This document shows, piece after piece, positions 2,936 through 29,359 of a stretch of DNA of 64,000 nt. Each line of letters begins with the position of its first letter. Within the stretch, counting starts at the first letter, position 1. The stretch is taken from positions 1 through 64,000 of IMG/VR virus record IMGVR_UViG_3300005573_000060. The stretch is one strand, 5' to 3'. The position numbers were made by a program, and so were the translations under genes. The DNA is from a virus. Under the pieces are notes generated by a model. It did no database searches and had not been told where the DNA came from. It saw only the letters and a list, made by a program, of their open reading frames with translations.

Positions 2936-3334
2936 TTACCATTCAGAGAGAAGAGCTCTTTTCCATCTATTTCCTACCCATATATATAGATAATTTCCAT
3001 CCGTAACGAGATGCATCGTCGATACATCTGATAAATTTTGTGGAAGTTGATTATATAATATATTATGATTGTTGAAAGGCTCAAAAAAGACATTCGGTGT
3101 TTTTATGTATGAGGAATTCACTTTTACTTTAAGAGTTGATGGATCTATGATTAATGTATCATTGTCAATATTCTTATAATTATTATCTTTTTGTACTAAA
3201 GTCTCAAAATCTTTATAAAGATTGTCTATAGATATATGCATCGGATATCTCCAAGAAGGAGAATTTAACTCCAAAAATACATTGGATTTATCGATAAATG
3301 TTGTATCAACTTCAGATATTCTTCCGGGCGCCAT
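2936..3334 (-). CDS. Small tail/baseplate-associated structural protein
   Basis: C-terminal DGNYLYIWVGNRWKRALLSEW motif typical of tail-fibre-associated domains. Last gene of the baseplate run. Confidence 0.45.
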   Translation of the reverse strand: MAPGRISEVDTTFIDKSNVFLELNSPSWRYPMHISIDNLYKDFETLVQKDNNYKNIDNDTLIIDPSTLKVKVNSSYIKTPNVFFEPFNNHNILYNQLPQNLSDVSTMHLVTDGNYLYIWVGNRWKRALLSEW

Positions 3335-3336
3335 TT

Positions 3337-6300
3337 TTACATAACTTTAATTAAACCTTCGTACTTTTTAGTAATAGCGTTTCCAAAAATATCATATGAT
3401 ATGCACTCAACATCATATGTTCCGGGTGTATCAAATATGTAAGGAACACTATCATTATACACTTTAAATAATATAGAGTCATTAAAGTGATCAGTTACAG
3501 TCCAGATATTTTTCTGATCTGTTAAGTATGTTGATGGGTCATAAATCGATCTTAGTATTACTAGTGTGCTTGCATCAACAACTATAGGTTTAGTATAATA
3601 ATAAAATTCGCTATTTATTAAATTATCTGATACATCATACCACTGTGAATTCACTTTGTTATGATCAAATAAAATGTTGATATAAGCAAATGTATTATCT
3701 AAATAATATTCCTGGCAATTTGAATCTTTTAGATAAATCTTGAAATTATTATTTTCTTCTTTAGCATCTTCAGTTAATAGAATTATATCTGAATAAGAAG
3801 AAAATGCATGTTTAACTTTAATGCTATATTTTAAAGGATTACTCAAAAAATAATTTGGAATGGGATAGTCAAATGTATGAGTACTTCCATTAACTTGAAG
3901 GACTCTATACGAAGATCCCCAAGAATATCCATTACTAAGGTCGGTTGCAATTACACCTACAAGTTGTCCAACTTCAAATTGATAACCACTAACATCTGCA
4001 ACAAATTTATTATCTATGTTACTGTAATTAACTATTGAGCGATATGTATCATTTATAATATAAATATCAGAAGATGTATCAAAGTAAATAGAAGATGGGA
4101 TGTTATCTAAAGTTAAATTATATCCAGAAACATTAACTATATGTGAACTGGCCTCTACTATTAAATCATAATTTCTTTTATCAAATTTCACTAATTTTAT
4201 ATCGTCATTTATATAAAATTTCTGATAATCTGGATCTATTGTAATTATGTTTCCGTTTATATTTGTAACTCTTTCAGTTAAATTATAGAATTTATTTATA
4301 GAATTTTTCTCGGGAACATCTTGAAAATATGTTATAGATGGAATGGATACATAAGGTTTTCCTTGAGAATCTATATTAAAAGTTAGGCCTTGAAGTGAAA
4401 TATACCTATCATATATAGGTTTATTATTATTTGATATAATTATACTAACATCATTTATATCAATAAATGTACTTGAACATACTACATTACACTTATCGTC
4501 TATTAAAGTATAAATAGTTGGTGATTTAATCCACACTGAATACGGTTCATTAGCAATACCATAGAACATTGTATTATAGTCATCCCAAGCAAAGACCTCT
4601 ATATTATAATTTCCTATATGATTAACGCTCATTTTGTATATACTGTTGTCAATTAATATAAAGCTTGAATTATTATTTCCAGTTCTTCCAGATGGGTCTG
4701 ACCAATAATATACACTTGGATCTATTTGATACAATCTCATTCTTGGTGATGTATAAACCGGATTAACTGTTATCATTTGTTCATTTAAGCTTGTATCATA
4801 ATCAAAATTTAAATAAATTGTTAAATTATCTGAAGAGTTTGTTGGATCTATTATTCCAGCATTCATTTCTATTTTTCCATCTATAATATCTAAATAATAT
4901 AATTTATCGAATAAATAGTTAACTCCGCTAGAGTCCATAGTTTTATAGTTCTTTACGCCAAAAAGTGGAACTTTATAGTTATCATCTATTGCATATTGAA
5001 GTAATGAATTTGTATTGGGATTAAGCGAAGGATAATCATAAAATTTATATATAACTCCAGAAGAAGCTTCCATTATATATCCATTTGAACATGGATCTGA
5101 ATAAAATGAATAAGAAATAGATTTATCCCATTCATCTACACTTGCATCTCTTAAATATCCTTTCTCTATATAAATTGTTAAAGAGGTAGATGTATCAAAA
5201 AATATTGAAGATGTATCAAATGTATTATAAAATCTTATATCATTTTCCAAGACAAATAAAGGATTTGAGACTAATGTTGAACCTATGACTCCGGCAAAAT
5301 CTTTTTCTGTTGATAATCTATATAAAACATCGTTTACGTTAACAAGAGGATAAGAAAGTGGAGCTCCGACTATTAAATAATCACTTGAATTTTCTAAGAA
5401 TGAGGGGTCATTCATAGAAAAATATCTACTTGGTTCTAATGGATTCCATGCATATTTGGCAAAATCTTCAAATTTATATGGTATATCAGATATTTTAAGT
5501 TTTGTCAATTCTAATAAAGACGCTTTTATATCTGCCTTTCCTTCTATTAATTCAGAAGATTTGTCTATTGCATAAGGAGTTAATTTTTGTTCTGCATTAT
5601 AATTAAATCCAATTCCACTTATATTATAAGATAAATTTCTAAATCTTTCTATATATATGCCTTCTCCTGTTATATCAACTATTCTACAGTTTACACCTAT
5701 TATATTTTTTTCTAACCAATTTTTTAACCCTAGTAATTTGACAAAAACTTCTTTAATATTATATGAGTAACAATTTTCAGTTATAGGAGTGCCCCAGATA
5801 TCAGTTTCTTCAGTTTCTCTATTTATACAATAATTAAGAGATAATTGATTAAGCTTTTTAAGTGTTTTTCTTTGATTACTGTCAAACATTAAAATTGTCT
5901 GTAATCTGTCTTTTGCATCATATGGAACAACAAAAGATATTTTTTTATTTTCTTTAACATTTAAAAACCATTCTCTAATATAGACGTCATCATATCCAAG
6001 CCACTTAATCGCATTTATTAAACCCTTGTATGTGCCAACATACGGCATTATTTTATCGTGTTCAAGAATAATATGTTTTGATTTATAGTTTAATATTTTC
6101 CAATCTGGAAGATCTTCATTTATATCAGTTTCTTTTAAAACTTGTTTGATGTTAACTGGATCTGGCAAACCAAAATTTTCTATATGTGTTCTAAATCTTT
6201 CATCTTCTCCTATAGCTTCAGCATTTACAATTACTTCTCCGATAACATATGCAGTATCATTAACTATATGGTATATTCTCATTCTTCTTTCAAAAACTCC

Positions 6301-6957
6301 CTCTTCTTCAGATCTAAATCCTATATTAAGTTGAAGAGGTGTATTCTTAGAAAATAAACTTACATCAAAAATTGCGGCGTCTCCCCAAGAAATCTCAGAT
6401 TTCTCTTCATCTACTTGAAAAAATGCTATTTCATCCTCTTCTCCAAAAAACTCAAATATTAATATAGAATCTGATGCATCATACGGTCTTATTAAATCTC
6501 CATTATCTAATTCTTCAAAGATATAAAGATGTTCAGTTTCAACTAATCCTACAGATACAGGTTTTAAAAAGATTGCGGCAGCAAATGTTGCAGATGGATA
6601 GCCAAATGTTTTATCTATATTTCCAAGTTTTAAACTACCAATTCCATAAGTGTATGTTTGCGTTGGATTAAATACTGAAACATTTATAAGATTTATAGAT
6701 GCTTCTGCAGGAGAAAGTGTGTATATTTCATCGTCGTATAAGTATTTATATGTTAATGTTATTTGATCCGGATCATCATAGAAATATCCACTATTTGTTA
6801 TTTTTGAAGATACGATTTTTCCACTTGCATCAGTTATAAGATATCCCTTTGCGTTCTTTCCTGCGGGTGAATTAAACGTCAATTGTATAAATGGATCAGC
6901 TACCCAATTAAGTAAACTTCCAGATTTATCGAATACTTTCCAATTACTTATATTCAT
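3337..6957 (-). CDS. Large baseplate wedge protein (gp7/gpI-like N-terminal region)
   Basis: VGTYKGLINAIKWLGY resembles the wedge gp7/gpI motif. It lies downstream of gp25 and gp6 and has 22 D-x-S sites. Confidence 0.5.
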   Translation of the reverse strand: MNISNWKVFDKSGSLLNWVADPFIQLTFNSPAGKNAKGYLITDASGKIVSSKITNSGYFYDDPDQITLTYKYLYDDEIYTLSPAEASINLINVSVFNPTQTYTYGIGSLKLGNIDKTFGYPSATFAAAIFLKPVSVGLVETEHLYIFEELDNGDLIRPYDASDSILIFEFFGEEDEIAFFQVDEEKSEISWGDAAIFDVSLFSKNTPLQLNIGFRSEEEGVFERRMRIYHIVNDTAYVIGEVIVNAEAIGEDERFRTHIENFGLPDPVNIKQVLKETDINEDLPDWKILNYKSKHIILEHDKIMPYVGTYKGLINAIKWLGYDDVYIREWFLNVKENKKISFVVPYDAKDRLQTILMFDSNQRKTLKKLNQLSLNYCINRETEETDIWGTPITENCYSYNIKEVFVKLLGLKNWLEKNIIGVNCRIVDITGEGIYIERFRNLSYNISGIGFNYNAEQKLTPYAIDKSSELIEGKADIKASLLELTKLKISDIPYKFEDFAKYAWNPLEPSRYFSMNDPSFLENSSDYLIVGAPLSYPLVNVNDVLYRLSTEKDFAGVIGSTLVSNPLFVLENDIRFYNTFDTSSIFFDTSTSLTIYIEKGYLRDASVDEWDKSISYSFYSDPCSNGYIMEASSGVIYKFYDYPSLNPNTNSLLQYAIDDNYKVPLFGVKNYKTMDSSGVNYLFDKLYYLDIIDGKIEMNAGIIDPTNSSDNLTIYLNFDYDTSLNEQMITVNPVYTSPRMRLYQIDPSVYYWSDPSGRTGNNNSSFILIDNSIYKMSVNHIGNYNIEVFAWDDYNTMFYGIANEPYSVWIKSPTIYTLIDDKCNVVCSSTFIDINDVSIIISNNNKPIYDRYISLQGLTFNIDSQGKPYVSIPSITYFQDVPEKNSINKFYNLTERVTNINGNIITIDPDYQKFYINDDIKLVKFDKRNYDLIVEASSHIVNVSGYNLTLDNIPSSIYFDTSSDIYIINDTYRSIVNYSNIDNKFVADVSGYQFEVGQLVGVIATDLSNGYSWGSSYRVLQVNGSTHTFDYPIPNYFLSNPLKYSIKVKHAFSSYSDIILLTEDAKEENNNFKIYLKDSNCQEYYLDNTFAYINILFDHNKVNSQWYDVSDNLINSEFYYYTKPIVVDASTLVILRSIYDPSTYLTDQKNIWTVTDHFNDSILFKVYNDSVPYIFDTPGTYDVECISYDIFGNAITKKYEGLIKVM

Positions 6958-6958
6958 A

Positions 6959-7237: not shown

Positions 7238-7241
7238 ATGC

Positions 7242-9137
7242 TTATAAATTATTTACAATTGCAATATTAGCTTCTGAATTTAAATTTTTCTGTGTGTATC
7301 CACGAACTTGTATGTTTACTGATGATAGTTTATTTTTTTCCAATGAATCTTCATAGTATACTCCAGATTCATTTTCAAATCCGCCTCTTACTAATGGATA
7401 AATATCTCTTACTGGAACATTATTTCCAAATGCATCTTTAACATAACGCTCTAATATTATATCTCCATATTCATCAATTCCATAGTGTGTTTTGTAAATA
7501 TTAATATTATCTTTTGATGCATCAAACCATACATTAACGGAATCTACTCCATCTATATCTTCTATTGTTTTAACTAAATCAGAAACAGGTATTCTATCTC
7601 TTCTAGTATTTTTTAGAAAATAATCAGATGTTTTTGATATAATTTCCTGTCTAACTGCATCATATGTAGTTCCTTCCCATAATATCAATGACATATTTAA
7701 TGTGAATCTTGGAAATTGCAGATCAAGAATAGCATTATCTACTGTTAACATTCTCTGGCCACTTTGTTCAATTAAATCTAAAATTGCTAATTTTTCACTA
7801 TCTGATAAAATAAATGCGCTTAAAGGACATGTATAATAATTTTCATTTGCTGAAATTCTTTTATTTACATCCGGAATTAAAAATAAATAGATAGTGTTAT
7901 CATCTTTTTTCTGCTGTTCTAATTTATTTTGATAATAATATAAATTTTGTTGCGCTTGATCTAATTCAGGTTTTAAAGATAATGATTGAAGAGAATCAAC
8001 TCCATAATTTGATATAGTTCTTCTATATTGTTCATTTAATTGTTCATAAATAGTTTTTGATTGATTATATTTATCAAGAATGTATTTGTCTTCAAATGTA
8101 GCAAATCCTGGAATAGCATCAATAACTGTAAAAATATTCAATTTTCTTAAAAAGTAAATATAATTATCGGTATTAGCTAAAACAAAACTTCTAGAAACTT
8201 TAGGTGCTAATAATCTAGTTAAATAAAGAGGTTCTTCTGGAGCTCCAAACATTATTTCATTTTTTATACTAACTCTTAAATATTTATTAAGATCAATAGG
8301 ATCACCGGATAATGAATATGCAGATGTTGTAAATTTCCATGTATTATTTAAGTTACTTTTCATTTTATTAAGATTTCCTAAATCTCCATCTGTAATAAGA
8401 TACTCCACTAAAATAGTAGATCCCATTCTAGGGATAGCGCCATTATATCCATTTCCAAAAAATAAATCAATTCCTCCCGTTTGGCCAGTTTTAATCATAA
8501 CAGCTTTTTGATTAAAGGCCATATCTAATATAGAATCAACTACTTGCCATCTTTCTCCATCAATATAAACATTTACATAATATTGATCTATATATGAGCT
8601 CTTTTTATTTTGAATATTAAAAGATTGAAGAGGATCTCCTGATCCAGTAAGTTGTTGATACTCTATTTTTCCTTGCACAACATTAACATCTAACGTATTA
8701 TTAATGTTATCAAAATTAAATATGGCTTCTTCACCTGGTAAAACTATTGTATATGTTAAACCATTATCGCTATTTGCCAACATTGTGTAATTTGGTATTG
8801 AAACTTTTTGTACACCTAGCGGTAATTTTTCTCCTGTATATGATAAAGTTAGTGTGCCTCTTGCAGCCATTGCTCTTGATGGATTATGACCAGTTAAAGC
8901 AGCCAAGCCTCTTATACTTTGTGTTCTCGAGGCAGTTTTTATATTTAACTCGGTAATAGAATCTTCTATATAAAATAGAATCATTCTTCCATAATGTAAT
9001 ATAACTTGAAGTAATTGCCCCATTGGAGAAGCCATTGAGAAATAGTTCTCTACGTCATCATATTGTTTTTTTATAAAGTCAATGGCATCATTATATAATT
9101 CTGCAAATCTTATTCGAGCTGTATTAAAAATTTCCAT
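7242..9137 (-). CDS. gp6: Baseplate wedge subunit (T4 gp6-like)
   Basis: N-terminal SPMGQLLQVILHY..ELNIKTASRTQSIRGLAALTGHNP, GIDLFFGNGYNGAIP..ILVEYLITDG, and 631-aa length. Confidence 0.8.
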   Translation of the reverse strand: MEIFNTARIRFAELYNDAIDFIKKQYDDVENYFSMASPMGQLLQVILHYGRMILFYIEDSITELNIKTASRTQSIRGLAALTGHNPSRAMAARGTLTLSYTGEKLPLGVQKVSIPNYTMLANSDNGLTYTIVLPGEEAIFNFDNINNTLDVNVVQGKIEYQQLTGSGDPLQSFNIQNKKSSYIDQYYVNVYIDGERWQVVDSILDMAFNQKAVMIKTGQTGGIDLFFGNGYNGAIPRMGSTILVEYLITDGDLGNLNKMKSNLNNTWKFTTSAYSLSGDPIDLNKYLRVSIKNEIMFGAPEEPLYLTRLLAPKVSRSFVLANTDNYIYFLRKLNIFTVIDAIPGFATFEDKYILDKYNQSKTIYEQLNEQYRRTISNYGVDSLQSLSLKPELDQAQQNLYYYQNKLEQQKKDDNTIYLFLIPDVNKRISANENYYTCPLSAFILSDSEKLAILDLIEQSGQRMLTVDNAILDLQFPRFTLNMSLILWEGTTYDAVRQEIISKTSDYFLKNTRRDRIPVSDLVKTIEDIDGVDSVNVWFDASKDNINIYKTHYGIDEYGDIILERYVKDAFGNNVPVRDIYPLVRGGFENESGVYYEDSLEKNKLSSVNIQVRGYTQKNLNSEANIAIVNNL

Positions 9138-9147
9138 ATTTTATTTT

Positions 9148-9510
9148 TTATTTTACTAATATGCCTATCATTTTTTCATTATTTATAAAAATATCTATAA
9201 CAGCATAATCATATCCATCGGCTCTTCCAAATGAAACGACAGGTTCTATTTTATAATCTTTAGTTTCAGAAATATATTGACTAAATTGTGTTTTAATTTT
9301 TTGTTCTAATGCAGTTTTATTTATTTTTGTTTCAAATATTAGATCTTCTAGACCTACTCCAAATGCTAAATCGCCAAATACTTGTCCAGGTGTAGTTCCA
9401 AGTATCATTTTAATTTTCGATAATATAGATTCTATCACATCTGAATGCTCTAATACTCCATATTTATAATTAGGATCTTCGGGATTTCTTATATAGATAT
9501 CTCGTATCAT
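9148..9510 (-). CDS. gp25: Baseplate protein gp25-like (sheath initiator)
   Basis: ILSKIKMILGTTPGQVFGDLAFGVGLEDLIFE matches the GPW/gp25 signature. Adjacent to gp6. Confidence 0.8.
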   Translation of the reverse strand: MIRDIYIRNPEDPNYKYGVLEHSDVIESILSKIKMILGTTPGQVFGDLAFGVGLEDLIFETKINKTALEQKIKTQFSQYISETKDYKIEPVVSFGRADGYDYAVIDIFINNEKMIGILVK

Positions 9511-9519
9511 ATTTCTTTT

Positions 9520-12373: not shown

Positions 12374-12406
12374 AAAAAAAAGAGGAACTTATAAGTTCCT
12401 CTTTTT
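12374..12406. terminator. Bidirectional-type intrinsic terminator overlapping the S1 stop codon
   Basis: A8-GAGGAAC-TTATAA-GTTCCTC-T5. Confidence 0.8.
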
Positions 12407-19349: not shown

Positions 19350-21638
19350 ATGTCAAATATAAATTCTTTTACAGAAACTGTAAATCTTTTAGTAGAGCAA
19401 ATTAATATAGCGTTAAGTAATATTGTTTCTCTTAATAAAAGTTTAACAACTCAAGAAGATACAGTTTCTCTATCAGTAGAACAAATTGATCCAATAACGG
19501 GTGATGCTTCTCTTGTAACATATTCATTACCTTCATATAATAATGTTATTAATAAAGTAAACACAGTTTCGCAAACTGTTGATACGTTTGTTAAAGGTGA
19601 AGGAGTTGTTTTATTAAATGATGGAACATACAGAAAAGTATCTACAGTTCCTTTAGCAGTTTCTCCAAATACTATATCTGGAATCACTCCGCCAACAAAA
19701 TTTAAAACAAGATACAATTGGTTCTTTGAATCAATGATGTTTCCTCAATTAATCGTTTCCTTTGATCTCAAAGGAGAGATTGACGATCGTTCAGATAGAG
19801 TTTTGGTTAGAAGAGTAATATTTGATAATTATAACGATGAAGAAACAGAATGGTTCTTAGATAATATAAAGTCGACACAAAGAAATTATTATGATACAAT
19901 AAAATTTCTAGAAGAACAAGGAAAAAAATATTGGATAGATGAAGAAGTTATAGAGTTGCCTTTATATCCTAAACCATATACAGGTAAATTCATTATTATA
20001 GATAAGGCAACAATAGATTCTAAAGAATGGTTTTTCCTTAATACTATGAATTATGGAGAAACTTCTGATGAGCCATTAGTAAAAAATTATCAATTATCAA
20101 TAGGAGATACACTTAGATATAATAATTCTGTTTGGAAAATAGATGATATTAATATTAATGAGAAAAGAGTTCATCTTATTCCAACTATAGGAATGGATCA
20201 TCCAACAATCAACAATTATTTTGAAATTTATACACAGCCATTTTCATCAAAAGTGATAGATATTGCAGTAGGATATGATGAATGTAATATATTATTTTTA
20301 AAAGGAGTTAATGATGATTTTAATATCATTTCAGATGACTGGAGTGATGGAATATCCTTTTGGACAAATCAATTAATAATTGATGGCGGAAACGCAACAC
20401 TGGAAGAATATTATAAAGATTATGTTCTTGATTTCGGAAGACAATTAGAAGGACAAGCTAAAGAAAAATACGTTCCTGCATATTTTGGTGTTGAACCAAA
20501 TGCGCCGGTGATTAGCGCAGATATGTTTTCAGTTACTCAAATTAATACGCAACTGAATGCTGCGTTAGATCAAGAAACTATAAAAAATACACAAACACAA
20601 ATTGAAAGCACAAAAACTATTATTAATAGTTTGAAGAACACTATAGCTCAACAAAAAGCTCAATTAGTAGAATTAACAGATCCAGGAGAAAGAGCAGATT
20701 TATCATCAAAAATAACTACAAATATTAATGATTTATCAAAGAAAACTATTGAATATCAATCTTTAGTTAAATCATTAGCTACTGTAGCTTATGAAAACTC
20801 AGCAGTTAATGTTGATCCAAAATATAGAATAAGAGGATTCTTTCCAATTCCAGAACTAAAGGATGGGCAACAAATTATTCAGTTTGAAATAGCATATCGT
20901 TATCTTAAGTTAGATAACACAGGAATTTCTCTCAATACATATGAATACACCGATCCTTGTACTGGGCAAAAAATAAAAGGAACATTTACAGATTGGAATA
21001 TAGTAACGACTCCAATGTTAAAAAAGGAATATGACGCGCAAAGTGATACATATAAATGGGTTAGAGAAAATGAAGCAGATGGAGAAGCTAATAACATAAA
21101 TCAAGTTGATATTCCAATAACAAAGGGCGAAAAAGTACAATTTAAGATTCGTTCTATTTCTGAGGCAGGTTGGCCTTTAAATCCTCTAAAATCTGTTTGG
21201 TCAGAACCTATTATAGTAGAATTTCCATCAAATCTAGAAACTTCTAATCAAGTTGTTAACATATTAAATGATGCTACCGCAGAAGAACAAGCTATTAAAT
21301 TAGATGAAACACTATCTGCGGCAGGAGTTCCAACACACCTTTCGGATAGTATTCCAAATCCAGTATCTGGATCTGGTACTTATTTTAAACATCAAGCGGC
21401 AAATTTATCATATGATTTAAAGATAAAAAATCTTAATGGAGTAGTACAAGTAGTTAATACAACAGATTTACAAACTCAACTTGAAAATTTACCTTTATAC
21501 AGCTATGTGACATTAACTAGACCAAATAATGCAAACTCTACAGATGATCATTTAACAGGGACACTTCAACAATTATTTCAAGCAATTGTTAATATCGATC
21601 CTTCTATATATGATGAATTTAAAGCTATTATAGGCTAA
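19350..21638 (+). CDS. Hypothetical structural protein with central coiled coil
   Basis: 762 aa with coiled coil TQIESTKTIINSLKNTIAQQKAQL, inside the tail block. Confidence 0.55.
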   Translation: MSNINSFTETVNLLVEQINIALSNIVSLNKSLTTQEDTVSLSVEQIDPITGDASLVTYSLPSYNNVINKVNTVSQTVDTFVKGEGVVLLNDGTYRKVSTVPLAVSPNTISGITPPTKFKTRYNWFFESMMFPQLIVSFDLKGEIDDRSDRVLVRRVIFDNYNDEETEWFLDNIKSTQRNYYDTIKFLEEQGKKYWIDEEVIELPLYPKPYTGKFIIIDKATIDSKEWFFLNTMNYGETSDEPLVKNYQLSIGDTLRYNNSVWKIDDININEKRVHLIPTIGMDHPTINNYFEIYTQPFSSKVIDIAVGYDECNILFLKGVNDDFNIISDDWSDGISFWTNQLIIDGGNATLEEYYKDYVLDFGRQLEGQAKEKYVPAYFGVEPNAPVISADMFSVTQINTQLNAALDQETIKNTQTQIESTKTIINSLKNTIAQQKAQLVELTDPGERADLSSKITTNINDLSKKTIEYQSLVKSLATVAYENSAVNVDPKYRIRGFFPIPELKDGQQIIQFEIAYRYLKLDNTGISLNTYEYTDPCTGQKIKGTFTDWNIVTTPMLKKEYDAQSDTYKWVRENEADGEANNINQVDIPITKGEKVQFKIRSISEAGWPLNPLKSVWSEPIIVEFPSNLETSNQVVNILNDATAEEQAIKLDETLSAAGVPTHLSDSIPNPVSGSGTYFKHQAANLSYDLKIKNLNGVVQVVNTTDLQTQLENLPLYSYVTLTRPNNANSTDDHLTGTLQQLFQAIVNIDPSIYDEFKAIIG

Positions 21639-21656: not shown

Positions 21657-24600
21657 ATGATAAAAAGATTTTTTAATAAAGTAGTATTAACATCAAAAAA
21701 CCCGGAAGCTTTTCTGAATCTAGTATCTGAAGGAGAAAGCATTTGGATTGTTCCAACGTGTAACATAGAAAGTAAAATGTTTTATGTTAATGGCATAGAT
21801 ATAAGTCTATATCAGCCTTCAATAGGATATTCTTTAAAATTTGATAATAACTACACTAATGCAATATTTCATATATACACTGAAAAGAATGAAAAGTTTG
21901 ATGCTAATTTACGTTTTAATATATATGATACTAGCGCGTTTTCTGCAGTTGTTGATTTCATAGATGTATCTATTTTAAATAGACCGTATATTATTCCAAA
22001 CAATATAATTGGAACTTATGAAAATGATAATCTTCTTATAGATGATGAAGCTTCATATTTATTAATTAGAACAAATCCAAAATTTACGGGAAATATAGCG
22101 ATATACGTTGATTCAAGCTACAATATTTTTCTTGATACAATAAAAGTTTCTGATATTTTATCAAATAAAAAATATAGACATCAACAGGTTTCAGGAAATA
22201 GCATATTATCTGGAGATATTAGAAATGTATTTTCTTCTTTACCATTAGGAGAACTATATCAAATAGATAAAGAAAACACTTTTGATATAAGTATTCCTAA
22301 AATGGAATATAGATACCAATACAACACAACATATAACTATGGCGCAAGATTATTAAAAGATGAATTGTACTCAGAAGATTATGGGTTAATGGCTCCATTA
22401 TGGATAAATTCTAAGTTACCAGACTATTTCGCCATATTTAGATTAGATGGCGCATATAATCCGGAAAGCTATAATGATGCTTCAATATACATATTAGCAG
22501 AAAAATATTTAAAAAATAGTAAGTTAATTAAAAGCTGGAGTTTAAAACAAAATACTCCTATAGGAAAATATTTAAATAATCATTTATCAGAAATAGAAAA
22601 AATTCAAGCTCCTGTATTTTTATCTTTAACTAGCCCAGATTTAAAAGAAACTGAATCAGATCCAAACACATGGTATGGAATATCTGTTAAAAAAGGAATT
22701 TTAACCGGGCATTCAGAAACTACATATTTCTTTAATCAAGTTGCTAATAATTTTACAGATTTAAATGCCTTTGTTTCAAAAGGATTTGAAAGAAATTCTT
22801 TATTGTGTCCAAATCTACTAAATTTACAATTTTTATTTAGCGATAATGATGTTAGTTTATATACAATGAATCGCTATTTTGGATTTTATTTGACAGAAAA
22901 TGTTTTGTATAAAATTGCATATTATTCAGATTCATCAAATGGTCCAGTGGAAATACTTTCTTTAGATGGAAAAAATAGTAGTGAATATTTTAATTCTTCA
23001 ATTTTTGATACAAGCGGAAATATAATAGAAGATTTTAAAAATCGTATATTTGTTTTAAATGACGGTGTTCAATTAAAAAGAATCACAAATGTTAATCAAA
23101 TAGATGATAGTTCTATTAATGAATATTTGAATAAGCCTTATGAAAATATATTTTCTACTAGAGTTCAACAAAAAAATATAAATCCATTTATATTATTAAC
23201 TATCAATAATACACTTTCTCAAGGAGAACATTTAAGAGTTATTAATAAGACACAAGGAAAAATTTGGGAAGCTTATAGTGTTAATTCAAGTGAATTTACA
23301 TGTGAAACTTATTGTACTATATCAAAAGATCCGAGTCATCTAACTGTATATAGAACATATTTTGATATAGATGGAGATATATCATATCAAATTAAACAAA
23401 TTGAAAGCGCGTTTACCAGATTTTCTAATTATTCAGACACTTCTTTTAGAGTAGGCATAAGTGGAGATAATTATGTATCAATAGTATTAAATGATGATGC
23501 AAATTTTTCAGATCAATGGGTATTTCAAAGAATAACTGCTTCAACGCTAAATAAATTTGATGATTTATCTTCAGGATTCTCATCCGCTTCATCTTTTGAT
23601 GATATATCATTCTTTGGAGTATTTACACCAAATTCAAGTGATTTTGAAATTATTTCTTATGATTCTTCTTATGGGCCGATAGACTTTGAGTTATACGGTC
23701 ATAGGCAAAGTATAATGATTGATTTCTTTAAACGAAATAATAATTATTTGTATTCATTTAAAAAAGAACAAAATATCATAGATAAATTTGAAAATCCAAC
23801 GTTATATCAATCAACAGATCTTTGGTACAGAAGATTATTAAATTTTGATGTATCTAATAATTCTTATCAATATATTAAAGATCCTGTTAGTTTAGAAGAT
23901 AATGTATTGATAATGACATCAAAAGAAATTAAAACTGTAAGAGAATTTTTTAACGCTTATAGTATATGGCCATTAAACATTTCATTAATGGGTATAAATC
24001 CGGTAAAAGATATAGATTATACAGTATATGACCAAAGTTTAGGATATAAGAGTCAATATACATATAAAAGAGAAAATGACTTAAGTACATATTTAATATC
24101 TATCGATTCAAGTGATTCATATATGCTTGATATTCCAGGATCCTATGTAGTTAAAACAGGAAATGGAACTTATGAACAGAGGGGAGCCGTAAAGTCTTAT
24201 ACAACTAATACATTATTTAACACATTTGATTCTAGCGCATATTTTAATGCGGATTCATACACAGAACTTACATATGCAGTTCTAGATGGTTCTTATAATT
24301 TTAAGGGATATAAAAATGGAATGTCTGGAAATGAAGAAAACATAAGTGATTACTATCAATCTAATAAATTATTAAAATATGGACTAATTGTTCCTGAGGT
24401 AGCAAAATGGGTTTCTCTTGGAAATGATTGTAGAAATAATCCTTTAAGATTAATATTAAACAGCGATGTTTTAGAAGTAAGCACAAATTTTATTCCATAT
24501 GAAAATAATTTTACACAAGAGATAGCAATTCCATCGTTTAAATATTTAACTGCTACAGAAAGATGCTGGCAAGATTATGTTTTTTATGATATAAATGATG

Positions 24601-26339
24601 TTATAAATGATAATGGAATATATAGAACATTTAAAGAAATGATGTTTCAGCATCCTTATGATGATTATTTCTCTAAATTATTATATACTAATAGTAAAGT
24701 TAATAAAGTCTTCTCAAGATCATCTATAGTCTATTATAATCAATACAAAAATAGTATAGATGTTCTATTTATGGGGTTAAATTTATCTATAAAAGTAGAA
24801 GATATAGCTAAAAATATAATTGACATTAAAACATATAATAAATATAGATTTTCATTTATTGCGACATCATCTAAAAATAGAGATAATAAAAGACCTATAG
24901 AAGTTATTATAAATGAAAACACAAAAACTATATTAATGATATGGTATCAAGGCAATGATGAACTTAATTACAATAAAAGATACTCTTCATTTTTACCAGG
25001 AAAATCAATATTAGATGCTTCAGATGCTGGATTTATTAGTGGTCTGGAAAAATATAGATATTCATTTATAAAAACTCCTTTTATTATTAGAAATGATACT
25101 GTTGTTAAAAGTATAGAATATTTATATTCTGATGATGAAAAATATAACGATTCATTTCTTACTAATTTGATTAAAAATGGATACTCTCAATTTAATAAAA
25201 ATCTTAATGGATTATATTCTTCATGGGTTTCCTGGGGAAATAATTCTATAATAAATTCAACTTTTCTAGAAGACAAAAATTATCAAACATTTGAACAATT
25301 CGTAAATTATGATTATAGACAAAACTCAATTACATATGGAAATTACGCTATAAATTATGGATACAAATATGAGAGTAATTGGAATATTTATGATAATAAT
25401 ACATGTAATCTAGATACATTAACATATTTACTTTCTCCTACATATAATTATGTAATGTATTATATAATAAGAGAAAATAATGTATATACTAATTATAGTT
25501 TTGGAAGTTTTGTCAATCCTTTCACTATTACAATCAATCCTCCGAGAAAATATAACAACATATTTACTTATAATGGGTGGTATAAACCAAAGTTTAATTC
25601 GATATTAGAGTTTACAGAAAATGAATCTTCAGATTTAGTAAATGTAACAAAAAAAGATTTTATTTTAAATAACACAAACATAAAATCTTATAATGGAATT
25701 TCTCAACTATGGTATAATAAGTTAACCGATAAAATAAGTGATACAGACATAAATAATGGAAATGCTATAGCATTTATACGCGATTTTAACGTATTTAAAT
25801 CTTTATGGGATAAAAACTATTATATAATGAGAGAGAATGAATTTATAGATGGATATAATTCACCTTATGAGTTACCTTCATTTTTTGGTTCAAAGCTTCC
25901 TAAGTTTCCAGATGAACTAAAATTAGAAAATTGGAATTCTACAATATGCAGTTACTCTGTTTTATCATCTGAAAATAAACTTAATCTTTTCTTTAATTTA
26001 ACAAGAGCTATATTATTATCATTTAAAAATAATGCAACATTTTTATCAAATTGGAGTAATTTCTCTAACACGGATAAACTTATTGATGAATATATTAAAA
26101 ATACAGTTATTACATATTATAACATAAGTCAATCAAAAATAAAAGTTAACTTTTATTACAAATCTAGAGACGCACAATTATTACATTATACATTAGATAG
26201 TAGTGATTTTGTTTATAGTGATAAACAAAATTTTGATGGGCAGCTAATATTTAGCAACAATGAATACATATATAAAATAGGAGTTCCTACTTTAGGGAAG
26301 TTCTCTTATTTTGTATCATTCACATTATTTGGTAAATAA
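21657..26339 (+). CDS. Very large tail/baseplate structural protein
   Basis: 1560-aa ORF in the tail block with 25 D-x-S sites. Confidence 0.55.
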   Translation: MIKRFFNKVVLTSKNPEAFLNLVSEGESIWIVPTCNIESKMFYVNGIDISLYQPSIGYSLKFDNNYTNAIFHIYTEKNEKFDANLRFNIYDTSAFSAVVDFIDVSILNRPYIIPNNIIGTYENDNLLIDDEASYLLIRTNPKFTGNIAIYVDSSYNIFLDTIKVSDILSNKKYRHQQVSGNSILSGDIRNVFSSLPLGELYQIDKENTFDISIPKMEYRYQYNTTYNYGARLLKDELYSEDYGLMAPLWINSKLPDYFAIFRLDGAYNPESYNDASIYILAEKYLKNSKLIKSWSLKQNTPIGKYLNNHLSEIEKIQAPVFLSLTSPDLKETESDPNTWYGISVKKGILTGHSETTYFFNQVANNFTDLNAFVSKGFERNSLLCPNLLNLQFLFSDNDVSLYTMNRYFGFYLTENVLYKIAYYSDSSNGPVEILSLDGKNSSEYFNSSIFDTSGNIIEDFKNRIFVLNDGVQLKRITNVNQIDDSSINEYLNKPYENIFSTRVQQKNINPFILLTINNTLSQGEHLRVINKTQGKIWEAYSVNSSEFTCETYCTISKDPSHLTVYRTYFDIDGDISYQIKQIESAFTRFSNYSDTSFRVGISGDNYVSIVLNDDANFSDQWVFQRITASTLNKFDDLSSGFSSASSFDDISFFGVFTPNSSDFEIISYDSSYGPIDFELYGHRQSIMIDFFKRNNNYLYSFKKEQNIIDKFENPTLYQSTDLWYRRLLNFDVSNNSYQYIKDPVSLEDNVLIMTSKEIKTVREFFNAYSIWPLNISLMGINPVKDIDYTVYDQSLGYKSQYTYKRENDLSTYLISIDSSDSYMLDIPGSYVVKTGNGTYEQRGAVKSYTTNTLFNTFDSSAYFNADSYTELTYAVLDGSYNFKGYKNGMSGNEENISDYYQSNKLLKYGLIVPEVAKWVSLGNDCRNNPLRLILNSDVLEVSTNFIPYENNFTQEIAIPSFKYLTATERCWQDYVFYDINDVINDNGIYRTFKEMMFQHPYDDYFSKLLYTNSKVNKVFSRSSIVYYNQYKNSIDVLFMGLNLSIKVEDIAKNIIDIKTYNKYRFSFIATSSKNRDNKRPIEVIINENTKTILMIWYQGNDELNYNKRYSSFLPGKSILDASDAGFISGLEKYRYSFIKTPFIIRNDTVVKSIEYLYSDDEKYNDSFLTNLIKNGYSQFNKNLNGLYSSWVSWGNNSIINSTFLEDKNYQTFEQFVNYDYRQNSITYGNYAINYGYKYESNWNIYDNNTCNLDTLTYLLSPTYNYVMYYIIRENNVYTNYSFGSFVNPFTITINPPRKYNNIFTYNGWYKPKFNSILEFTENESSDLVNVTKKDFILNNTNIKSYNGISQLWYNKLTDKISDTDINNGNAIAFIRDFNVFKSLWDKNYYIMRENEFIDGYNSPYELPSFFGSKLPKFPDELKLENWNSTICSYSVLSSENKLNLFFNLTRAILLSFKNNATFLSNWSNFSNTDKLIDEYIKNTVITYYNISQSKIKVNFYYKSRDAQLLHYTLDSSDFVYSDKQNFDGQLIFSNNEYIYKIGVPTLGKFSYFVSFTLFGK

Positions 26340-26341
26340 TT

Positions 26342-27412
26342 ATGAAATACGAATATTCACCGGGATTAAAAGGATATGGAGTTAAGGGTAATGATGGGTC
26401 AAGCGGTCTATCAGGATTATCTCTGTATTTTACTGATCTTGAACATCCAAGAGACTATCTTGATATAAAAACAAGAATAAAAAATAATTGGGCTTTATTT
26501 TTAAATTCACCTCCAGGAACAACTTTACCTAATAACAGAACATATCAAAATGGAGATTTATTTATAACTTCATATGGATATGTTTTTAAAATAACTGATG
26601 CTTCAAATGGAATATACGTACAAACAGATGGGCTTTTAACAAAAGAAAATTATTTTGAAAAAAGTAATCCTCTTATTTCTGCATTATATGGGTTTAATGA
26701 AAGATGGTTAAACAAAAATAGCATTAATAGCACTCATTACTTAATAGATAATAATTTTTCTTCAGTATCAAATTATCTATATCCTTCTAATATTTATGGT
26801 GTAGATTTAAAAAATTTTACAAGAATAGAATATACAGATTCTTCGGCATTTTCTTTATATTCTTCTGCAAAATACTCAACAATAGATGATTCAAAAGTTT
26901 TAGGAATAATTTTTAGAGATAACGCTTTTAGAATAGGAAACTTAGATGATAATGATAATGTTAGGAACACTAATTTAATATTTGATGTATCTTTATTAAA
27001 AATAGAAAGAAATACTTGTTTTGGTGTAGATGCTTCTATCGGTGAAATATTAACTAATAATGAAATAGGCCCGTTATCTTTATGTTCAGATTATTTTAAT
27101 TATTCTCCTGCTTCTAACGCATTTGGGATTTCTAAATCTGGCACTGATTGTAGCATTTATTGGAATTTAAGTGCTTTTACAAGTGATCCTGATGTAACAG
27201 CAACAATAATATTTTCAGCATCACCATTAAATTATAATAATTCTATAGTATTTGATGCATCTGTATATAAACAAATGATGTTTCATAATATAGATTCTTC
27301 AGGTAGTATAAAAATAACAAATCTTAATACAAATTATATATACATATATAAAATAGTTATTGAAAAGAACGGCTGGGAAAGATTTTCAAGTACAAAATCA
27401 ATAACAGTGTAA
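26342..27412 (+). CDS. Tail fibre-like protein, paralog of the N-terminal part of 27428..29359
   Basis: Shared blocks YFTDL, GDLFI, NFxRIEYT, IGNxDD..RN..L.FDVS and GS.KITNLN, plus a short N-terminal collagen-like stretch. Confidence 0.65.
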   Translation: MKYEYSPGLKGYGVKGNDGSSGLSGLSLYFTDLEHPRDYLDIKTRIKNNWALFLNSPPGTTLPNNRTYQNGDLFITSYGYVFKITDASNGIYVQTDGLLTKENYFEKSNPLISALYGFNERWLNKNSINSTHYLIDNNFSSVSNYLYPSNIYGVDLKNFTRIEYTDSSAFSLYSSAKYSTIDDSKVLGIIFRDNAFRIGNLDDNDNVRNTNLIFDVSLLKIERNTCFGVDASIGEILTNNEIGPLSLCSDYFNYSPASNAFGISKSGTDCSIYWNLSAFTSDPDVTATIIFSASPLNYNNSIVFDASVYKQMMFHNIDSSGSIKITNLNTNYIYIYKIVIEKNGWERFSSTKSITV

Positions 27413-27427
27413 AAAAATAATAGTTAT

Positions 27428-29359
27428 ATGAACGATAAATTTAAATATGCGCCCGGAAAACCCGGATTTGGAACAAAAGGAGATAAAGGTGAAAATGGCC
27501 AACAGGGTATATCTATGTACTTCACAGATTTAGATCCTATTTCTGATAGTATGATATTAACATCGAGAATTCAAACAAATAAAACTTTATGGAAAAATGA
27601 AGATTCTTTTCTTCCTGATGGTAGAGCATATGTTACCGGTGATTTATTTATAGATAAAGAAGGAAAAACTTATGAAATAAATGCTGAAACGCATACATAT
27701 CAATATAAATTATCAAATTTAAACACAGGTGGAATATTTATTCCTCTTGGAATATCAAGTGATAATAATTTTAAAAGATATTTTAACAATAATTCATCTC
27801 CAAAATACATAATAGATAATGTATATACAACAACCGGCGCAATTAATTATACTGCAATTCCAGATAAAATATATGGAATTCCTCCTCAAAATTTCGCAAG
27901 AATAGAATACACTAATATTAAACAAGGTACTGATGGAAGCACATACGCATTTACAGTTTATTCATTGGCTGATCCAAGCGGAAATGCTCAAGAAGAAAGT
28001 AATAAAGCATTAGCAATAACATATAGTGATAAAGATAAATATTTTCACATAGGAAATAAAGATGATAGTGGAAAAATAAGAAATGTATCTTTAGTATTTG
28101 ATGTTTCAAGTTTAAGAAGATACTCTAAAGGAGTAAAAATTAATGATCCTTCTGGCGCAATTTTAACGAATTATGAAATAAATGCAAATTCATTATTTGA
28201 TGGAAATTTTAATCCCGAGCCAGATTCATTTTATGGAGGATTTATCAATGCATCTGATGCCTTTATACATTGGAATCTTTTGGATTTTTTAAATGGAAAT
28301 TATAGTGAATCTTATTATGTATATGGAGACTTATATTTTTATGAATATATTCCTTCTTATAATGGTCAAACATATCGATTTGATGCATCTATTGTAAGAC
28401 CTATGATATTTCAAAATATAATGTCTTATTCTACCGCAGATGGCTCAGTAAAAATAACAAATTTAAATCCTACAGGAACATACGCATATTACATGAAGCT
28501 ATATAGAAATGGGTGGTCAAGAAAATCAAACACTAAGTATTTGTATAATGGAACTGTAAGTGTTACGCCACTTCAAGCGTTAAATGAACCGTCTATAGCA
28601 CATTGGGTTGGAAGTGTTCCTTCGAGTAGCACATTCTTTAATGTAGATTCTAATACAACATGGAGTGTATCATTTGTTCCATCAGTTTCATGGATATCCT
28701 CTCTTATATGCACCAGTTCAGGATATGATGGATCTATTGGGTTTTTCATATCTGCTAATACTGGAGATGCAAGAAGCACAAAGATGAGAGTAACCGCAAA
28801 AGGTGGATTGTATCAAGATGTATCAATTTCTCAGGTAGCTAATACTAGAAATGTAACTATATCCACAAATACTTCATACGGACCTTATTATACTCCTGAT
28901 ACTCATGGATGGGGTGGATATAAATTAGATGTATCTAACGGAATTTCTTTAACAAATCTTCCTTCAGATACATCTGTTAATATACAGTTTGTAAGTTATA
29001 TTCATGCAGTTAATAATAATCCTACTGATCCAATTCAATCGGCAAGTAAATTACTTATTTATAAAAATAATTCTAATGTTAATGATATTAATATTGGATC
29101 TACATTAATAGATGTGGGCACAACTTTTGATGCCAGTTCGTCTTATACATTATATAATATAAGATCATCTGATATAATAAGAGTTGATTATTACCCAATT
29201 AATACATTTGCTTATGAAATAAATGAAAACTTGGATTCATCTGAAGGAAATTGGGATGTTAGTATAGGATTTAATGTATATGTACAATATGTTAGTGGAA
29301 CTCCTATTAATATTACAAATAACGGTTATGGAAAATCTTATCATATAGACATACGATAA
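27428..29359 (+). CDS. Tail fibre-like protein with BACON domain
   Basis: Paralog of the previous gene, plus a BACON segment (FNVDSNTTWSV..SWI..ANTGDARSTKMRVTA..VSISQ). Confidence 0.65.
   Translation: MNDKFKYAPGKPGFGTKGDKGENGQQGISMYFTDLDPISDSMILTSRIQTNKTLWKNEDSFLPDGRAYVTGDLFIDKEGKTYEINAETHTYQYKLSNLNTGGIFIPLGISSDNNFKRYFNNNSSPKYIIDNVYTTTGAINYTAIPDKIYGIPPQNFARIEYTNIKQGTDGSTYAFTVYSLADPSGNAQEESNKALAITYSDKDKYFHIGNKDDSGKIRNVSLVFDVSSLRRYSKGVKINDPSGAILTNYEINANSLFDGNFNPEPDSFYGGFINASDAFIHWNLLDFLNGNYSESYYVYGDLYFYEYIPSYNGQTYRFDASIVRPMIFQNIMSYSTADGSVKITNLNPTGTYAYYMKLYRNGWSRKSNTKYLYNGTVSVTPLQALNEPSIAHWVGSVPSSSTFFNVDSNTTWSVSFVPSVSWISSLICTSSGYDGSIGFFISANTGDARSTKMRVTAKGGLYQDVSISQVANTRNVTISTNTSYGPYYTPDTHGWGGYKLDVSNGISLTNLPSDTSVNIQFVSYIHAVNNNPTDPIQSASKLLIYKNNSNVNDINIGSTLIDVGTTFDASSSYTLYNIRSSDIIRVDYYPINTFAYEINENLDSSEGNWDVSIGFNVYVQYVSGTPINITNNGYGKSYHIDIR

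What the first reader, a model, noticed from the sequence alone, without database searches (positions are those of the whole stretch)
2936..29359. D-x-S tripeptide strongly over-represented in peripheral tail/baseplate proteins: candidate sequon for phage-encoded virion glycosylation
Seen (hand counts): 14 of 43 Asp in 27428..29359 and 9 of 24 Asp in 26342..27412 have Ser at +2. There are 22 sites in 3337..6957, 25 in 21657..26339 and 12 in 16511..18940 (mostly DAS/DVS/DSS/DTS/DPS), against 1 in the 417-aa AGT and 1 in the 631-aa core wedge gp6. Ser is roughly a tenth of residues, so this is about 2-3 fold above chance. In the two paralogous fibres the sites sit at aligned positions while x changes (VDAS/NDPS, IDSS/ADGS, TDSS/TDGS, FDAS/FDAS). 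Ser uses both TCN and AGY codons (e.g. gat gga agc 27932, gat cca agc 27971, gat gcc agt 29129, gat gtt agt 29255), so the constraint acts on the protein, not the DNA. Known: the Bacteroidota periplasmic O-glycosylation sequon is D-(S/T)-x, which is different, and virions assemble in the cytoplasm. Inference: D-x-S is an acceptor motif for the phage's own glycosyltransferase operon at 39-51.6 kb, coating exposed tail parts with glycan.
Basis: partly seen in the sequence, partly recalled or inferred. Interest (0 to 1): 0.85.

Follow-up and report, generated by a model that had tools for sequence, protein, structure and literature searches.

The report
Asp-x-Ser motif on megaphage tail proteins
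The outer baseplate and fibre proteins of this uncultured Lak-related megaphage and its whole clade carry the tripeptide Asp-x-Ser about three times too often at conserved strand-end loops; this may be an attachment tag for sugars made by the phage's own large glycosyltransferase island, but a purely structural role is nearly as likely and no chemistry shows either.

Summary
In the window's peripheral tail proteins D-x-S occurs 94 times against 38.9 expected (z 8.8). That is the top outlier of all 400 i/i+2 residue pairs. D-x-T is halved, and N-x-S, E-x-S, D-S and D-x-x-S are flat. Capsid, gp6 and non-structural proteins show no excess.

The excess is a derived trait of one clade (gp6 at least 60% identical). 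Sixty-nine orthologues of the 1206-aa gp7-position protein average 3.2-fold. About 55 outgroup loci, Lak-A1 and T4 sit near 1.0.

D and S are conserved at fixed positions while x varies. Outgroup orthologues lack the motif at aligned positions, so the fold does not need it. In an AlphaFold model the sites lie where beta-strands end and loops begin.

The link to the glycosyltransferase island is only partly supported:
- The clade-specific island (at least six GTs, sugar-activating enzymes, three methyltransferases) co-occurs with the motif, but that is one evolutionary event.
- One GT is a full-length homologue of T4 DNA alpha-glucosyltransferase.
- A complete outgroup genome has GT25 and GT10 genes without any excess.

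Earlier notes of this scan report the same motif on a related genome, and other Ser motifs in other phages.

The parts
2936..3334 (-). 132-aa tail protein downstream of the gp7-position gene; D-x-S 3 against 0.8 expected
3337..6957 (-). 1206-aa peripheral baseplate protein in the gp7 position: a conserved, poorly modelled, partly helical core (about residues 240-450) and tandem beta-sandwich domains. It has 22 D-x-S against 8.9 expected, at strand-end loops and none in the core.
   Evidence: 69 orthologues pooled 1501 against 466
7242..9137 (-). gp6-like baseplate wedge protein (internal control): 1 D-x-S against 3.1 expected; orthologues pooled 0.37-fold
9148..9510 (-). gp25-like baseplate wedge protein; no D-x-S
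13784..14386 (+). 200-aa tail protein; 3 D-x-S against 0.9; orthologue group pooled 3.6-fold
14408..16462 (+). 684-aa LRR-type repeat protein with a 46-aa period (CNLTGTLDVSGLTxLGG); 18 of 27 Asp are in D-x-S, inside the repeat consensus
16511..18940 (+). 809-aa collagen-like tail fibre; 12 D-x-S against 5.6
19350..21638 (+). 762-aa tail protein (phrog_29329); weak excess, 6 against 3.8
21657..26339 (+). 1560-aa fibre or baseplate protein; 25 D-x-S against 10.9, and D-x-T 1 against 6.1
26342..27412 (+). 356-aa fibre protein, paralogue of the next gene (36% identity); 9 D-x-S against 3.0
27428..29359 (+). 643-aa fibre protein; 14 D-x-S against 4.9, and D-x-T 0 against 3.4
40038..41291 (+). 417-aa GT-B enzyme, full-length homologue of T4 DNA alpha-glucosyltransferase (PDB 1xv5, E 4e-15)
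42504..43238 (+). GT25 glycosyltransferase, first member of the clade-conserved GT25-GT10-GT25 trio
43257..44108 (+). GT10 alpha-1,3-fucosyltransferase-like enzyme (FucT_N plus Glyco_transf_10)
44105..45967 (+). 620-aa sugar-1-phosphate nucleotidyltransferase fused to a HAD-type capsule-biosynthesis phosphatase
45964..47366 (+). two DUF7796 proteins (45964-46623 and 46620-47366)
47363..48304 (+). 313-aa protein with a predicted GT-B (GT1/GT4-like) fold; look-alikes in phages and giant viruses
48301..48951 (+). FkbM-family methyltransferase
48948..49631 (+). GT25 glycosyltransferase, third member of the trio
49644..50366 (+). 240-aa protein with a predicted GT-A fold; clade-specific
50368..51644 (+). 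FkbM methyltransferase (50368-51024) and a further methyltransferase (51024-51644)
51698..53434 (-). gp23-like major capsid protein (control): 2 D-x-S against 1.8

Best explanation
D-x-S, more fully hydrophobic-Asp-[Ala/Val/Pro]-Ser-[Ile/Leu/Gly], is a lineage-specific recognition motif read by a trans-acting factor of this megaphage clade. The most likely reader is a soluble phage glycosyltransferase that O-glycosylates the Ser in the cytoplasm, before or during tail assembly. Other enzymes of the clade-specific GT, nucleotide-sugar and methyltransferase island would then extend and methylate the glycan, coating the exposed loops of the peripheral baseplate and fibres. Shown here: the excess, its residue specificity, its restriction to outer tail proteins, its positional conservation, its gain in one clade, its loop location, and the presence of the GT island. 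Inferred: that the Ser is modified, that the modification is a glycan, and which enzyme writes it.
For: (1) D-x-S is the top outlier of all i/i+2 pairs (94 against 38.9, z 8.8). It is Asp- and Ser-specific, with D-x-T at 0.5 and N-x-S at 0.98. (2) The same tripeptide is enriched in proteins of unrelated architecture: tandem beta-sandwich domains, LRR repeats, 14-residue heptad-type repeats beside collagen tracts, and fibre paralogues. It is not enriched in MCP, prohead protease, gp6 or non-structural proteins. (3) It is a derived trait of the clade: 59 orthologues of at least 500 aa of the 1206-aa protein are all at 2.2-4.25-fold even at 41-50% identity, while about 55 outgroup loci are at 0.63-1.73, Lak-A1 at 1.1-2.2, G003, G006 and G013 at about 0.7-1.7, and T4 at 1.02. 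(4) Outgroup orthologues align through the sites but mostly lack D-x-S there (5 of about 24 in G003, 5 of about 31 in Lak), so the fold does not need the motif. (5) D and S are conserved (0.79 and 0.78, against 0.56 and 0.44 for other Asp and Ser) while x is free (0.44). (6) Both Ser codon families are used. (7) Sites sit at strand-end loops and avoid the conserved core domain. (8) The clade shares a GT island between the tail and capsid genes with at least six GTs, a sugar-activating fusion enzyme and three methyltransferases. A GT25-GT10-GT25 trio recurs in G000, G001, G002, G005, G007 and G010. About 11 of 59 clade-specific genes lie in this island. (9) Precedent: phage-encoded GTs glycosylate mycobacteriophage virions (Freeman 2023, cited in PMC12619734).
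Against: No chemistry exists. The motif and the island co-occur as one clade-level event, which could be shared ancestry alone. The 417-aa GT is a full-length T4 DNA alpha-glucosyltransferase homologue. Relatives carry a second, divergent thymidylate-synthase-family gene, next to the single GT25 in G003, and phage GT clusters are known to put glycans of up to three sugars on DNA, so the island may serve DNA. GT25 and GT10 family genes occur without any D-x-S excess in complete G013, and GT25 genes alone do so in G011, Lak-A1 and G003. A strand-end Asp-x-Ser is also the geometry of an Asx-turn cap. The excess sits at about 30 conserved positions, with no turnover above the chance background. 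The exposed MCP is not enriched.
Confidence: 0.4

Rival explanations
1. The motif is structural and unmodified. Asp ends a beta-strand and forms an Asx-turn to the backbone NH, and possibly the hydroxyl, of Ser at +2. This clade fixed the device in many outer-tail loops for stability or folding. The GT island serves DNA hypermodification or another target.
For: 10 of 18 confidently modelled sites have Asp in the last two strand residues or the first three loop residues, against 15 of 52 other Asp. There is a hydrophobic residue at -1, small residues or Pro at x, and Gly enriched at +3 and +4. Asp to Asn is the commonest substitution at the sites. In the LRR protein D-x-S is part of the repeat consensus. 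The excess lies at conserved positions without extra turnover. There is an AGT homologue plus a candidate hydroxymethylase. Ser is favoured over beta-branched Thr in turns (general knowledge).
Against: Orthologues with the same alignable fold in about 55 outgroup loci, Lak and T4 do without the motif. N-x-S, N-x-T and D-x-T, which form the same turn, are not enriched or are depleted. More than 150 sites in over ten proteins of different folds were gained together in one lineage, which points to a shared trans-acting cause. The core proteins of the same virion are at or below expectation.
Confidence: 0.33
2. The motif is read by a different trans-acting factor: another serine modification (phosphorylation, acylation), a clade-specific fibre chaperone or assembly factor, or a ligand such as a metal ion or a host surface component.
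For: The same comparative logic applies as for the best explanation. 59 clade-specific genes exist, and most have no annotation.
Against: No kinase, acyltransferase or similar enzyme was recognised among the annotated clade-specific genes. The GT island is the only recognisable enzyme set that tracks the clade.
Confidence: 0.15
3. The excess is not independent selection. It is inherited through tandem repeats, domain duplication and module exchange among fibre genes, or it is a composition artefact.
For: 18 sites in the LRR protein and 44 in the 2181-aa protein outside the window come from tandem repeats. Two fibres are paralogues, and 21657-26339 shares a weak domain with 3337-6957.
Against: After masking all paralogous segments the excess remains: 74 against 27.3, or 56 against 24.1 without the LRR protein. 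Expectations were computed per protein from its own composition. Outgroup orthologues with the same domains lack the sites.
Confidence: 0.05

Closest known systems
Virion glycosylation of mycobacteriophages by phage-encoded glycosyltransferases (Freeman et al. 2023, Cell Host Microbe; known here through PMC12619734)
   Same: Phage-encoded soluble GTs next to structural genes; the proposed cytoplasmic O-glycosylation of virion proteins.
   Different: In mycobacteriophages the glycans sit on C-terminal extensions of the capsid and tail-tube subunits, and no short sequon is defined. Here the capsid shows no excess and a dispersed tripeptide marks only the outer baseplate and fibres. The host phylum and phage family differ, and nothing has been shown chemically here.
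Chlorovirus PBCV-1 major capsid protein glycosylation and Mimivirus fibril glycosylation by virus-encoded GT and methyltransferase sets (own knowledge, not tested)
   Same: Large virus-encoded islands of GT-A and GT-B enzymes, sugar-nucleotide enzymes and sugar methyltransferases acting in the cytoplasm at non-canonical acceptor motifs. Atlas look-alikes of two island proteins include giant-virus clusters.
   Different: Those are eukaryotic viruses, with N-linked attachment in PBCV-1 and different acceptor motifs. Homology to those enzymes was not established here.
Staphylococcal SdgB/SdgA O-GlcNAcylation of Ser-Asp repeat adhesins (PMC3794999, PMC8561734)
   Same: A GT-B enzyme that modifies Ser in an Asp-flanked context, Ser-specifically.
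   Different: The acceptor there is a long disordered SD dipeptide repeat (D-S-D register). Here the sites are single D-x-S at the ends of beta-strands. No Sdg homologue was identified.
Bacteroidota general O-glycosylation sequon D-(S/T)-(A/I/L/V/M/T)
   Same: An Asp-anchored Ser sequon in the presumed host phylum.
   Different: The register differs, and D-S is not enriched (1.03). Thr is accepted there but avoided here. That system is periplasmic, while virions assemble in the cytoplasm.
Asx-turn, the conformation adopted by N-x-S/T sequons and by D-x-T/S hairpin loops (general structural knowledge)
   Same: Asp at i with Ser at i+2, at the exit of a beta-strand.
   Different: A generic Asx-turn accepts Asn and Thr and is found in all proteins. 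Here only Asp and Ser are enriched, only in one clade, and only in outer tail proteins.
Phage DNA glycan hypermodification (T4 alpha-glucosyltransferase; Pyle et al., bioRxiv 10.1101/2023.12.21.572611)
   Same: 40038-41291 is a full-length AGT homologue. GT clusters can build glycans of up to three sugars on 5-hydroxymethylcytosine.
   Different: It explains the island but not the protein motif. The island has at least six GTs, a fucosyltransferase-like enzyme and three methyltransferases, which is more than described for DNA glycans.

Membership tests
Phage virion glycosylation system (mycobacteriophage type) | Phage-encoded soluble glycosyltransferases encoded beside the structural genes | tested here: met
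   There are at least six GT-family or GT-fold genes at 40038-50366, between the tail genes and the MCP.
Phage virion glycosylation system (mycobacteriophage type) | Glycan demonstrated on virion proteins | not testable with these tools
   The phage is uncultured and no proteomic data were examined.
Phage virion glycosylation system (mycobacteriophage type) | Acceptor sites on capsid and tail-tube C-termini | tested here: not met
   The MCP has 2 D-x-S against 1.8 expected. The excess is confined to peripheral baseplate and fibre proteins. The tail tube was not identified or examined.
Bacteroidota general O-glycosylation sequon D-(S/T)-(A/I/L/V/M/T) | Ser or Thr directly after Asp | tested here: not met
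   D-S is 40 against 38.9 and D-T is 30 against 28.1 in the tail proteins. The excess is only at i+2 and only for Ser.
Generic Asx-turn / strand-capping motif | Asp at the strand exit with the i+2 residue in the turn | tested here: inconclusive
   Secondary structure of the AlphaFold model places 10 of 18 sites there. No coordinates were available to check the hydrogen bond or burial.
Generic Asx-turn / strand-capping motif | Interchangeable with Asn at i and Thr at i+2, and present in orthologues of the same fold | tested here: not met
   N-x-S is 0.98, N-x-T 1.12 and D-x-T 0.50. Outgroup orthologues lack the motif at aligned positions.
T4-type DNA alpha-glucosyltransferase (AGT, PF11440) for 40038-41291 | Full-length sequence homology to T4 AGT | tested here: met
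   PDB 1xv5, 1y6f and 1y8z, E 4e-15, residues 1-401 against 2-398; Pfam AGT at 32.3 bits, above the cut-off.
T4-type DNA alpha-glucosyltransferase (AGT, PF11440) for 40038-41291 | A hydroxymethyl-pyrimidine pathway in the same genome | tested here: inconclusive
   Divergent thymidylate-synthase-family genes occur in relatives G001, G002 and G003. None lies in the 129.7-kb fragment that holds the window, and the activity is unknown.
Leucine-rich repeat protein (14408-16462) | Tandem LxxLxLxxN-type repeats | tested here: inconclusive
   The repeat has a 46-aa period with ...LTGTLDVSGLTxLGG.... Pfam LRR_5 scores 26.1 bits, just under the 27.7 cut-off.

The most novel reading that the evidence does not exclude
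A clade of environmental megaphages related to the Lak phages uses a previously undescribed O-glycosylation code. A soluble phage glycosyltransferase recognises hydrophobic-Asp-x-Ser at the exits of beta-strands and seeds a methylated, fucose-containing glycan on well over a hundred sites of the outer baseplate and fibres. If the other lineage-specific Ser motifs noted by this scan are real, sequon-directed sugar coating of tail tips would be a general, lineage-variable feature of large phages.
Probability: 0.35. Interest if true: 0.85.

Novelty: new variant of a known kind. Interest (0 to 1): 0.62.

Why it matters
If the Ser is glycosylated, this would be the first defined acceptor motif for phage virion glycosylation, and the first case in megaphages or phages of presumed Bacteroidota hosts. 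Glycosylated virion surfaces could then be predicted from sequence alone. It would bear on receptor binding, on protection of fibres from proteases, and on evasion of host or animal recognition. It would also assign a function to large GT islands that are usually annotated as DNA- or LPS-modifying. If the motif is structural, it is still an unusual case: one lineage rewrote more than a hundred loops of its adsorption apparatus with a single tripeptide, which is useful for fibre engineering and structure prediction. Either way the statistical signal is strong, clade-wide and cheap to test by co-expression and mass spectrometry.

Tried and rejected
- Alternative genetic code. Lak phages recode TAG, but the standard code gives coding density of about 0.9 in G000-G003, G005, G006 and G013, with no gain from TAG=Q or TGA=W. 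TAG=Q was used only for Lak-A1.
- Sequence searches of the PDB with 3337-6957, 27428-29359, 47363-48304 and 49644-50366 found no hits.
- tblastn of the 643-aa fibre against GenBank phages found no match.
- Foldseek of the 1200-residue model against the PDB gave only generic tandem Ig/FN3-like arrays with TM below 0.1, so there is no informative homologue.
- The single-sequence AlphaFold run of the 299-aa heptad-repeat protein failed (pLDDT 36). It cannot show whether the 14-residue D-x-S repeats are coiled coil.
- Using the GT10 protein to find independent phage lineages with the island returned only five close relatives, so no independent replicate was obtained.
- A glycan-shield-like turnover of sites was looked for and not found. 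Rare-position sites (7.6 per sequence) equal the chance background.
- A literature search for an Asp-X-Ser O-glycosylation sequon returned only papers on N-linked (Asn-X-Ser/Thr-type) glycosylation.
- Explanations by composition or by repeats were tested and rejected.
- Complex prediction, sequencing-run tools and the large protein searches were not used. None could show a modification.

Full report
WHAT THE WINDOW IS. The window is the first 64 kb of a 129.7-kb virus contig with 29% G+C. CheckV rates it 32% complete. Its gp6-like baseplate wedge protein (7242-9137) is 43% identical to that of the Prevotella Lak megaphages. Its gp23-like capsid protein (51698-53434) is 64-70% identical to proteins on IMG/VR contigs of up to 405 kb, one of them complete with terminal repeats (G001). 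The standard genetic code fits. The window holds three blocks:
- a baseplate module on the minus strand (gp25-like, gp6-like, and a 1206-aa protein in the gp7 position);
- a run of large tail and fibre genes on the plus strand (13.8-32 kb);
- a glycosyltransferase island (40-51.6 kb), followed by the capsid and prohead-protease genes.

Expectations were taken from each protein's own composition.
- D-x-S is 2.1-3.6-fold in 2936-3334, 3337-6957, 13784-14386, 16511-18940, 21657-26339, 26342-27412 and 27428-29359.
There the sites belong to a 46-residue LRR-type tandem repeat, so they are not independent.
- Pooled without that protein, D-x-S is 94 against 38.9 (z 8.8). That is the largest deviation among all 400 i/i+2 pairs, ahead of the collagen signals.
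- D-x-T is halved (14 against 28). N-x-S, N-x-T, E-x-S, D-S and D-x-x-S are at expectation. The other 47 ORFs of the window give 0.67.
- Masking every paralogous segment leaves 74 against 27.3, or 56 against 24.1 without the LRR protein.
- Ser at the sites uses TCN and AGY codons in near-background proportion.
- The extended motif has a hydrophobic residue at -1 (F, W, L, I), then Asp, then A/V/P, then Ser, then I/L/G.
- Outside the window, a second fibre cluster at 86.5-104.7 kb is also enriched. One 2181-aa protein there has 44 sites among 82 Asp, in strict 14-residue repeats beside collagen-like tracts.

THE EXCESS BELONGS TO ONE CLADE.
- Whole relatives G001, G002 and G005 show the same pattern. 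Only giant fibre and peripheral baseplate proteins are enriched (2-4.3-fold, with D-x-T depleted), and all other ORFs pool to 1.03-1.06.
- In 80 gp6-anchored IMG/VR loci, 69 orthologues of the 1206-aa protein pool to 1501 against 466. The adjacent gp6 orthologues pool to 78 against 212.
- Every orthologue of at least 500 aa from loci whose gp6 is 60-76% identical lies at 2.2-4.25-fold, whatever its own divergence (41-63% identity).
- A second search seeded with outgroup gp6 proteins gave about 55 further loci with gp6 at most 44% identical. Their gp7-position proteins lie at 0.63-1.73, median about 1.1.
- Lak-A1 tail proteins are at 1.1-2.2. G003, G006 and G013 are at about 0.7-1.7.
- T4 peripheral baseplate and fibre proteins pool to 32 against 31.3.
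- The excess is therefore neither a general property of phage fibres nor of this protein family. It was gained on the stem of one clade.

SITE BEHAVIOUR.
- In 31 full-length orthologues (47-64% identical), Asp and Ser of the sites are conserved at 0.79 and 0.78. Other Asp and Ser are at 0.56 and 0.44, and the middle residue at 0.44. Ser to Thr is rare, and Asp to Asn is the commonest change.
- Sequences carry 27 sites on average. Eleven positions are at least 80% occupied, 19 are 30-80% occupied, and the 7.6 rare-position sites per sequence match the chance expectation. So the excess resides in about 30 selected positions, with no extra turnover.
- In G003 and Lak-A1 orthologues, aligned positions are D-x-S in only 5 of about 24 and 5 of about 31 cases. 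Sites that are nearly invariant in the clade are among those lost. The shared fold does not require the motif.

STRUCTURE.
- An AlphaFold2 model of residues 7-1206 with a 29-sequence alignment has mean pLDDT 71, and mostly 80-94 beyond residue 450.
- It shows N- and C-terminal beta-sandwich arrays flanking a poorly modelled, partly helical, highly conserved core. Foldseek finds only generic Ig/FN3-like arrays.
- Ten of 18 confidently modelled sites have the Asp in the last two residues of a strand or the first three of the following loop, against 15 of 52 other Asp. No site lies in the conserved core.
- This is the geometry of an Asx-turn cap, and equally that of an exposed acceptor loop.
- The fold of the heptad-repeat protein failed.

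THE GLYCOSYLTRANSFERASE ISLAND. The island holds:
- an AGT-like GT-B enzyme;
- two GT25 enzymes;
- a GT10 fucosyltransferase-like enzyme;
- a sugar-1-phosphate nucleotidyltransferase fused to a HAD phosphatase;
- two DUF7796 proteins;
- a GT-B-fold and a GT-A-fold protein without Pfam matches;
- two FkbM methyltransferases and a third methyltransferase.

A GT25-GT10-GT25 trio recurs in all clade members with enough sequence. The rest of the island varies between close relatives. About 11 of 59 clade-specific genes lie in it.

Three facts weaken the proposed link to the motif:
- The AGT-like protein aligns end to end with T4 DNA alpha-glucosyltransferase. Relatives have a second, divergent thymidylate-synthase-family gene, which in G003 lies beside its only GT25. 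Phage GT clusters are known to build glycans of one to three sugars on DNA.
- GT25 genes occur in G003, G008, G011, G012 and Lak-A1. GT25 plus a fused GT10-GT25 occur in complete G013, which has no D-x-S excess anywhere (378 against 429). Those enzymes are only about 26% identical to the window's, so they may have other specificities.
- The co-occurrence of island and motif is one event on one branch.

WEIGHING THE EXPLANATIONS. Well over a hundred sites of one Asp- and Ser-specific tripeptide were gained together. They lie in more than ten outer-tail proteins of different architecture. The core virion proteins and all outgroup orthologues lack the excess. This is most simply explained by a shared trans-acting reader, which is the logic of a sequon.
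- The only recognisable enzyme set that tracks the clade is the GT island, and phage virion glycosylation has precedent. I give O-glycosylation of the Ser 0.40.
- A purely structural strand-capping motif, with the island serving DNA, gets 0.33. It fits the geometry and the positional fixity. It does not explain the lineage restriction, the exclusion of Asn and Thr, or the dispensability in orthologues.
- Another reader or modification gets 0.15.
- Inheritance through repeats or a composition artefact gets 0.05.

RELATION TO EARLIER NOTES. The scan's unchecked notes include a first-reader note of D-x-S excess in a 1227-aa baseplate protein of another genome (e1-5904989). That matches the 1227-aa orthologues I scored in G002 and L116 (28 and 27 sites). 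Many follow-up notes describe other lineage-specific Ser motifs on the outer tail proteins of GT-bearing phages. I used them only as leads, for the SdgB and autotransporter-heptosyltransferase comparisons. They are not independent evidence.

VERDICT. If the motif is a sequon, it would be a new variant of a known kind.

Noticed in passing
genome G000 86581-104720 (outside the window; locus L170): A second cluster of D-x-S-rich fibre genes. A 2181-aa protein (95146-101691) has 44 sites in 14-residue (two-heptad) repeats of the type DASYNVLWNWHVSE-DSSIVNLRTKDSNI-DTSINxLY, following collagen-like GxQ tracts. A 299-aa protein (94177-95076) carries the same repeats.
   Followed up: partly
window 40038-41291; relatives G001 259734-260234, G002 252373-252918, G003 44746-45315: A full-length homologue of T4 DNA alpha-glucosyltransferase, together with a divergent second thymidylate-synthase-family gene in relatives. 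This suggests hydroxymethyl-pyrimidine DNA that is glycosylated.
   Followed up: partly
window 32178-33476 and 59371-60669; genome 117413-118726: Three paralogous genes of 432-437 aa with no Pfam match. Copies occur in relatives (78-81% in L002, 47% in G001, 35-38% in G006 and Lak-A1). This is probably a mobile element gene such as a transposase.
   Followed up: no
window 1675-2340: A 221-aa protein with a NUMOD3 motif (homing-endonuclease type). Its family has about 15 copies in the complete relative G001 and is clade-specific.
   Followed up: partly
window 7242-9137 and its 81 orthologues: The gp6-like wedge protein is depleted in D-x-S (78 against 212 pooled, 0.37-fold), the opposite of its neighbour. 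The counts are not independent, because the sequences are related.
   Followed up: partly
window 12389-13642: A 417-aa protein with three S1 RNA-binding domains is encoded inside the baseplate module and is conserved in all relatives, including the outgroups.
   Followed up: no
G013 (loci L236-L254), proteins of 800 aa or more: This complete outgroup megaphage (374 kb, 50% G+C) has no D-x-S excess, but its large proteins have a Ser-Gly dipeptide excess (161 against 103, z 5.7). It also has a fused GT10-GT25 ORF at 237742-239397.
   Followed up: no
G008 (loci L156-L160): Coding density rises from 0.78 to 0.87 when TAG is read as a sense codon. This relative may use amber recoding like the Lak phages, unlike the window's clade.
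   Followed up: no
window 317-1207: A 296-aa ORF with a short match (residues 19-34) to the Eco57I-type restriction-modification methylase family.
   Followed up: no
loci L001-L016 downstream of the capsid gene: The GT island next to the capsid gene differs in gene content even between relatives with 64-70% identical capsid proteins. Only the GT25-GT10-GT25 trio and the GT-A-fold gene recur.
   Followed up: partly
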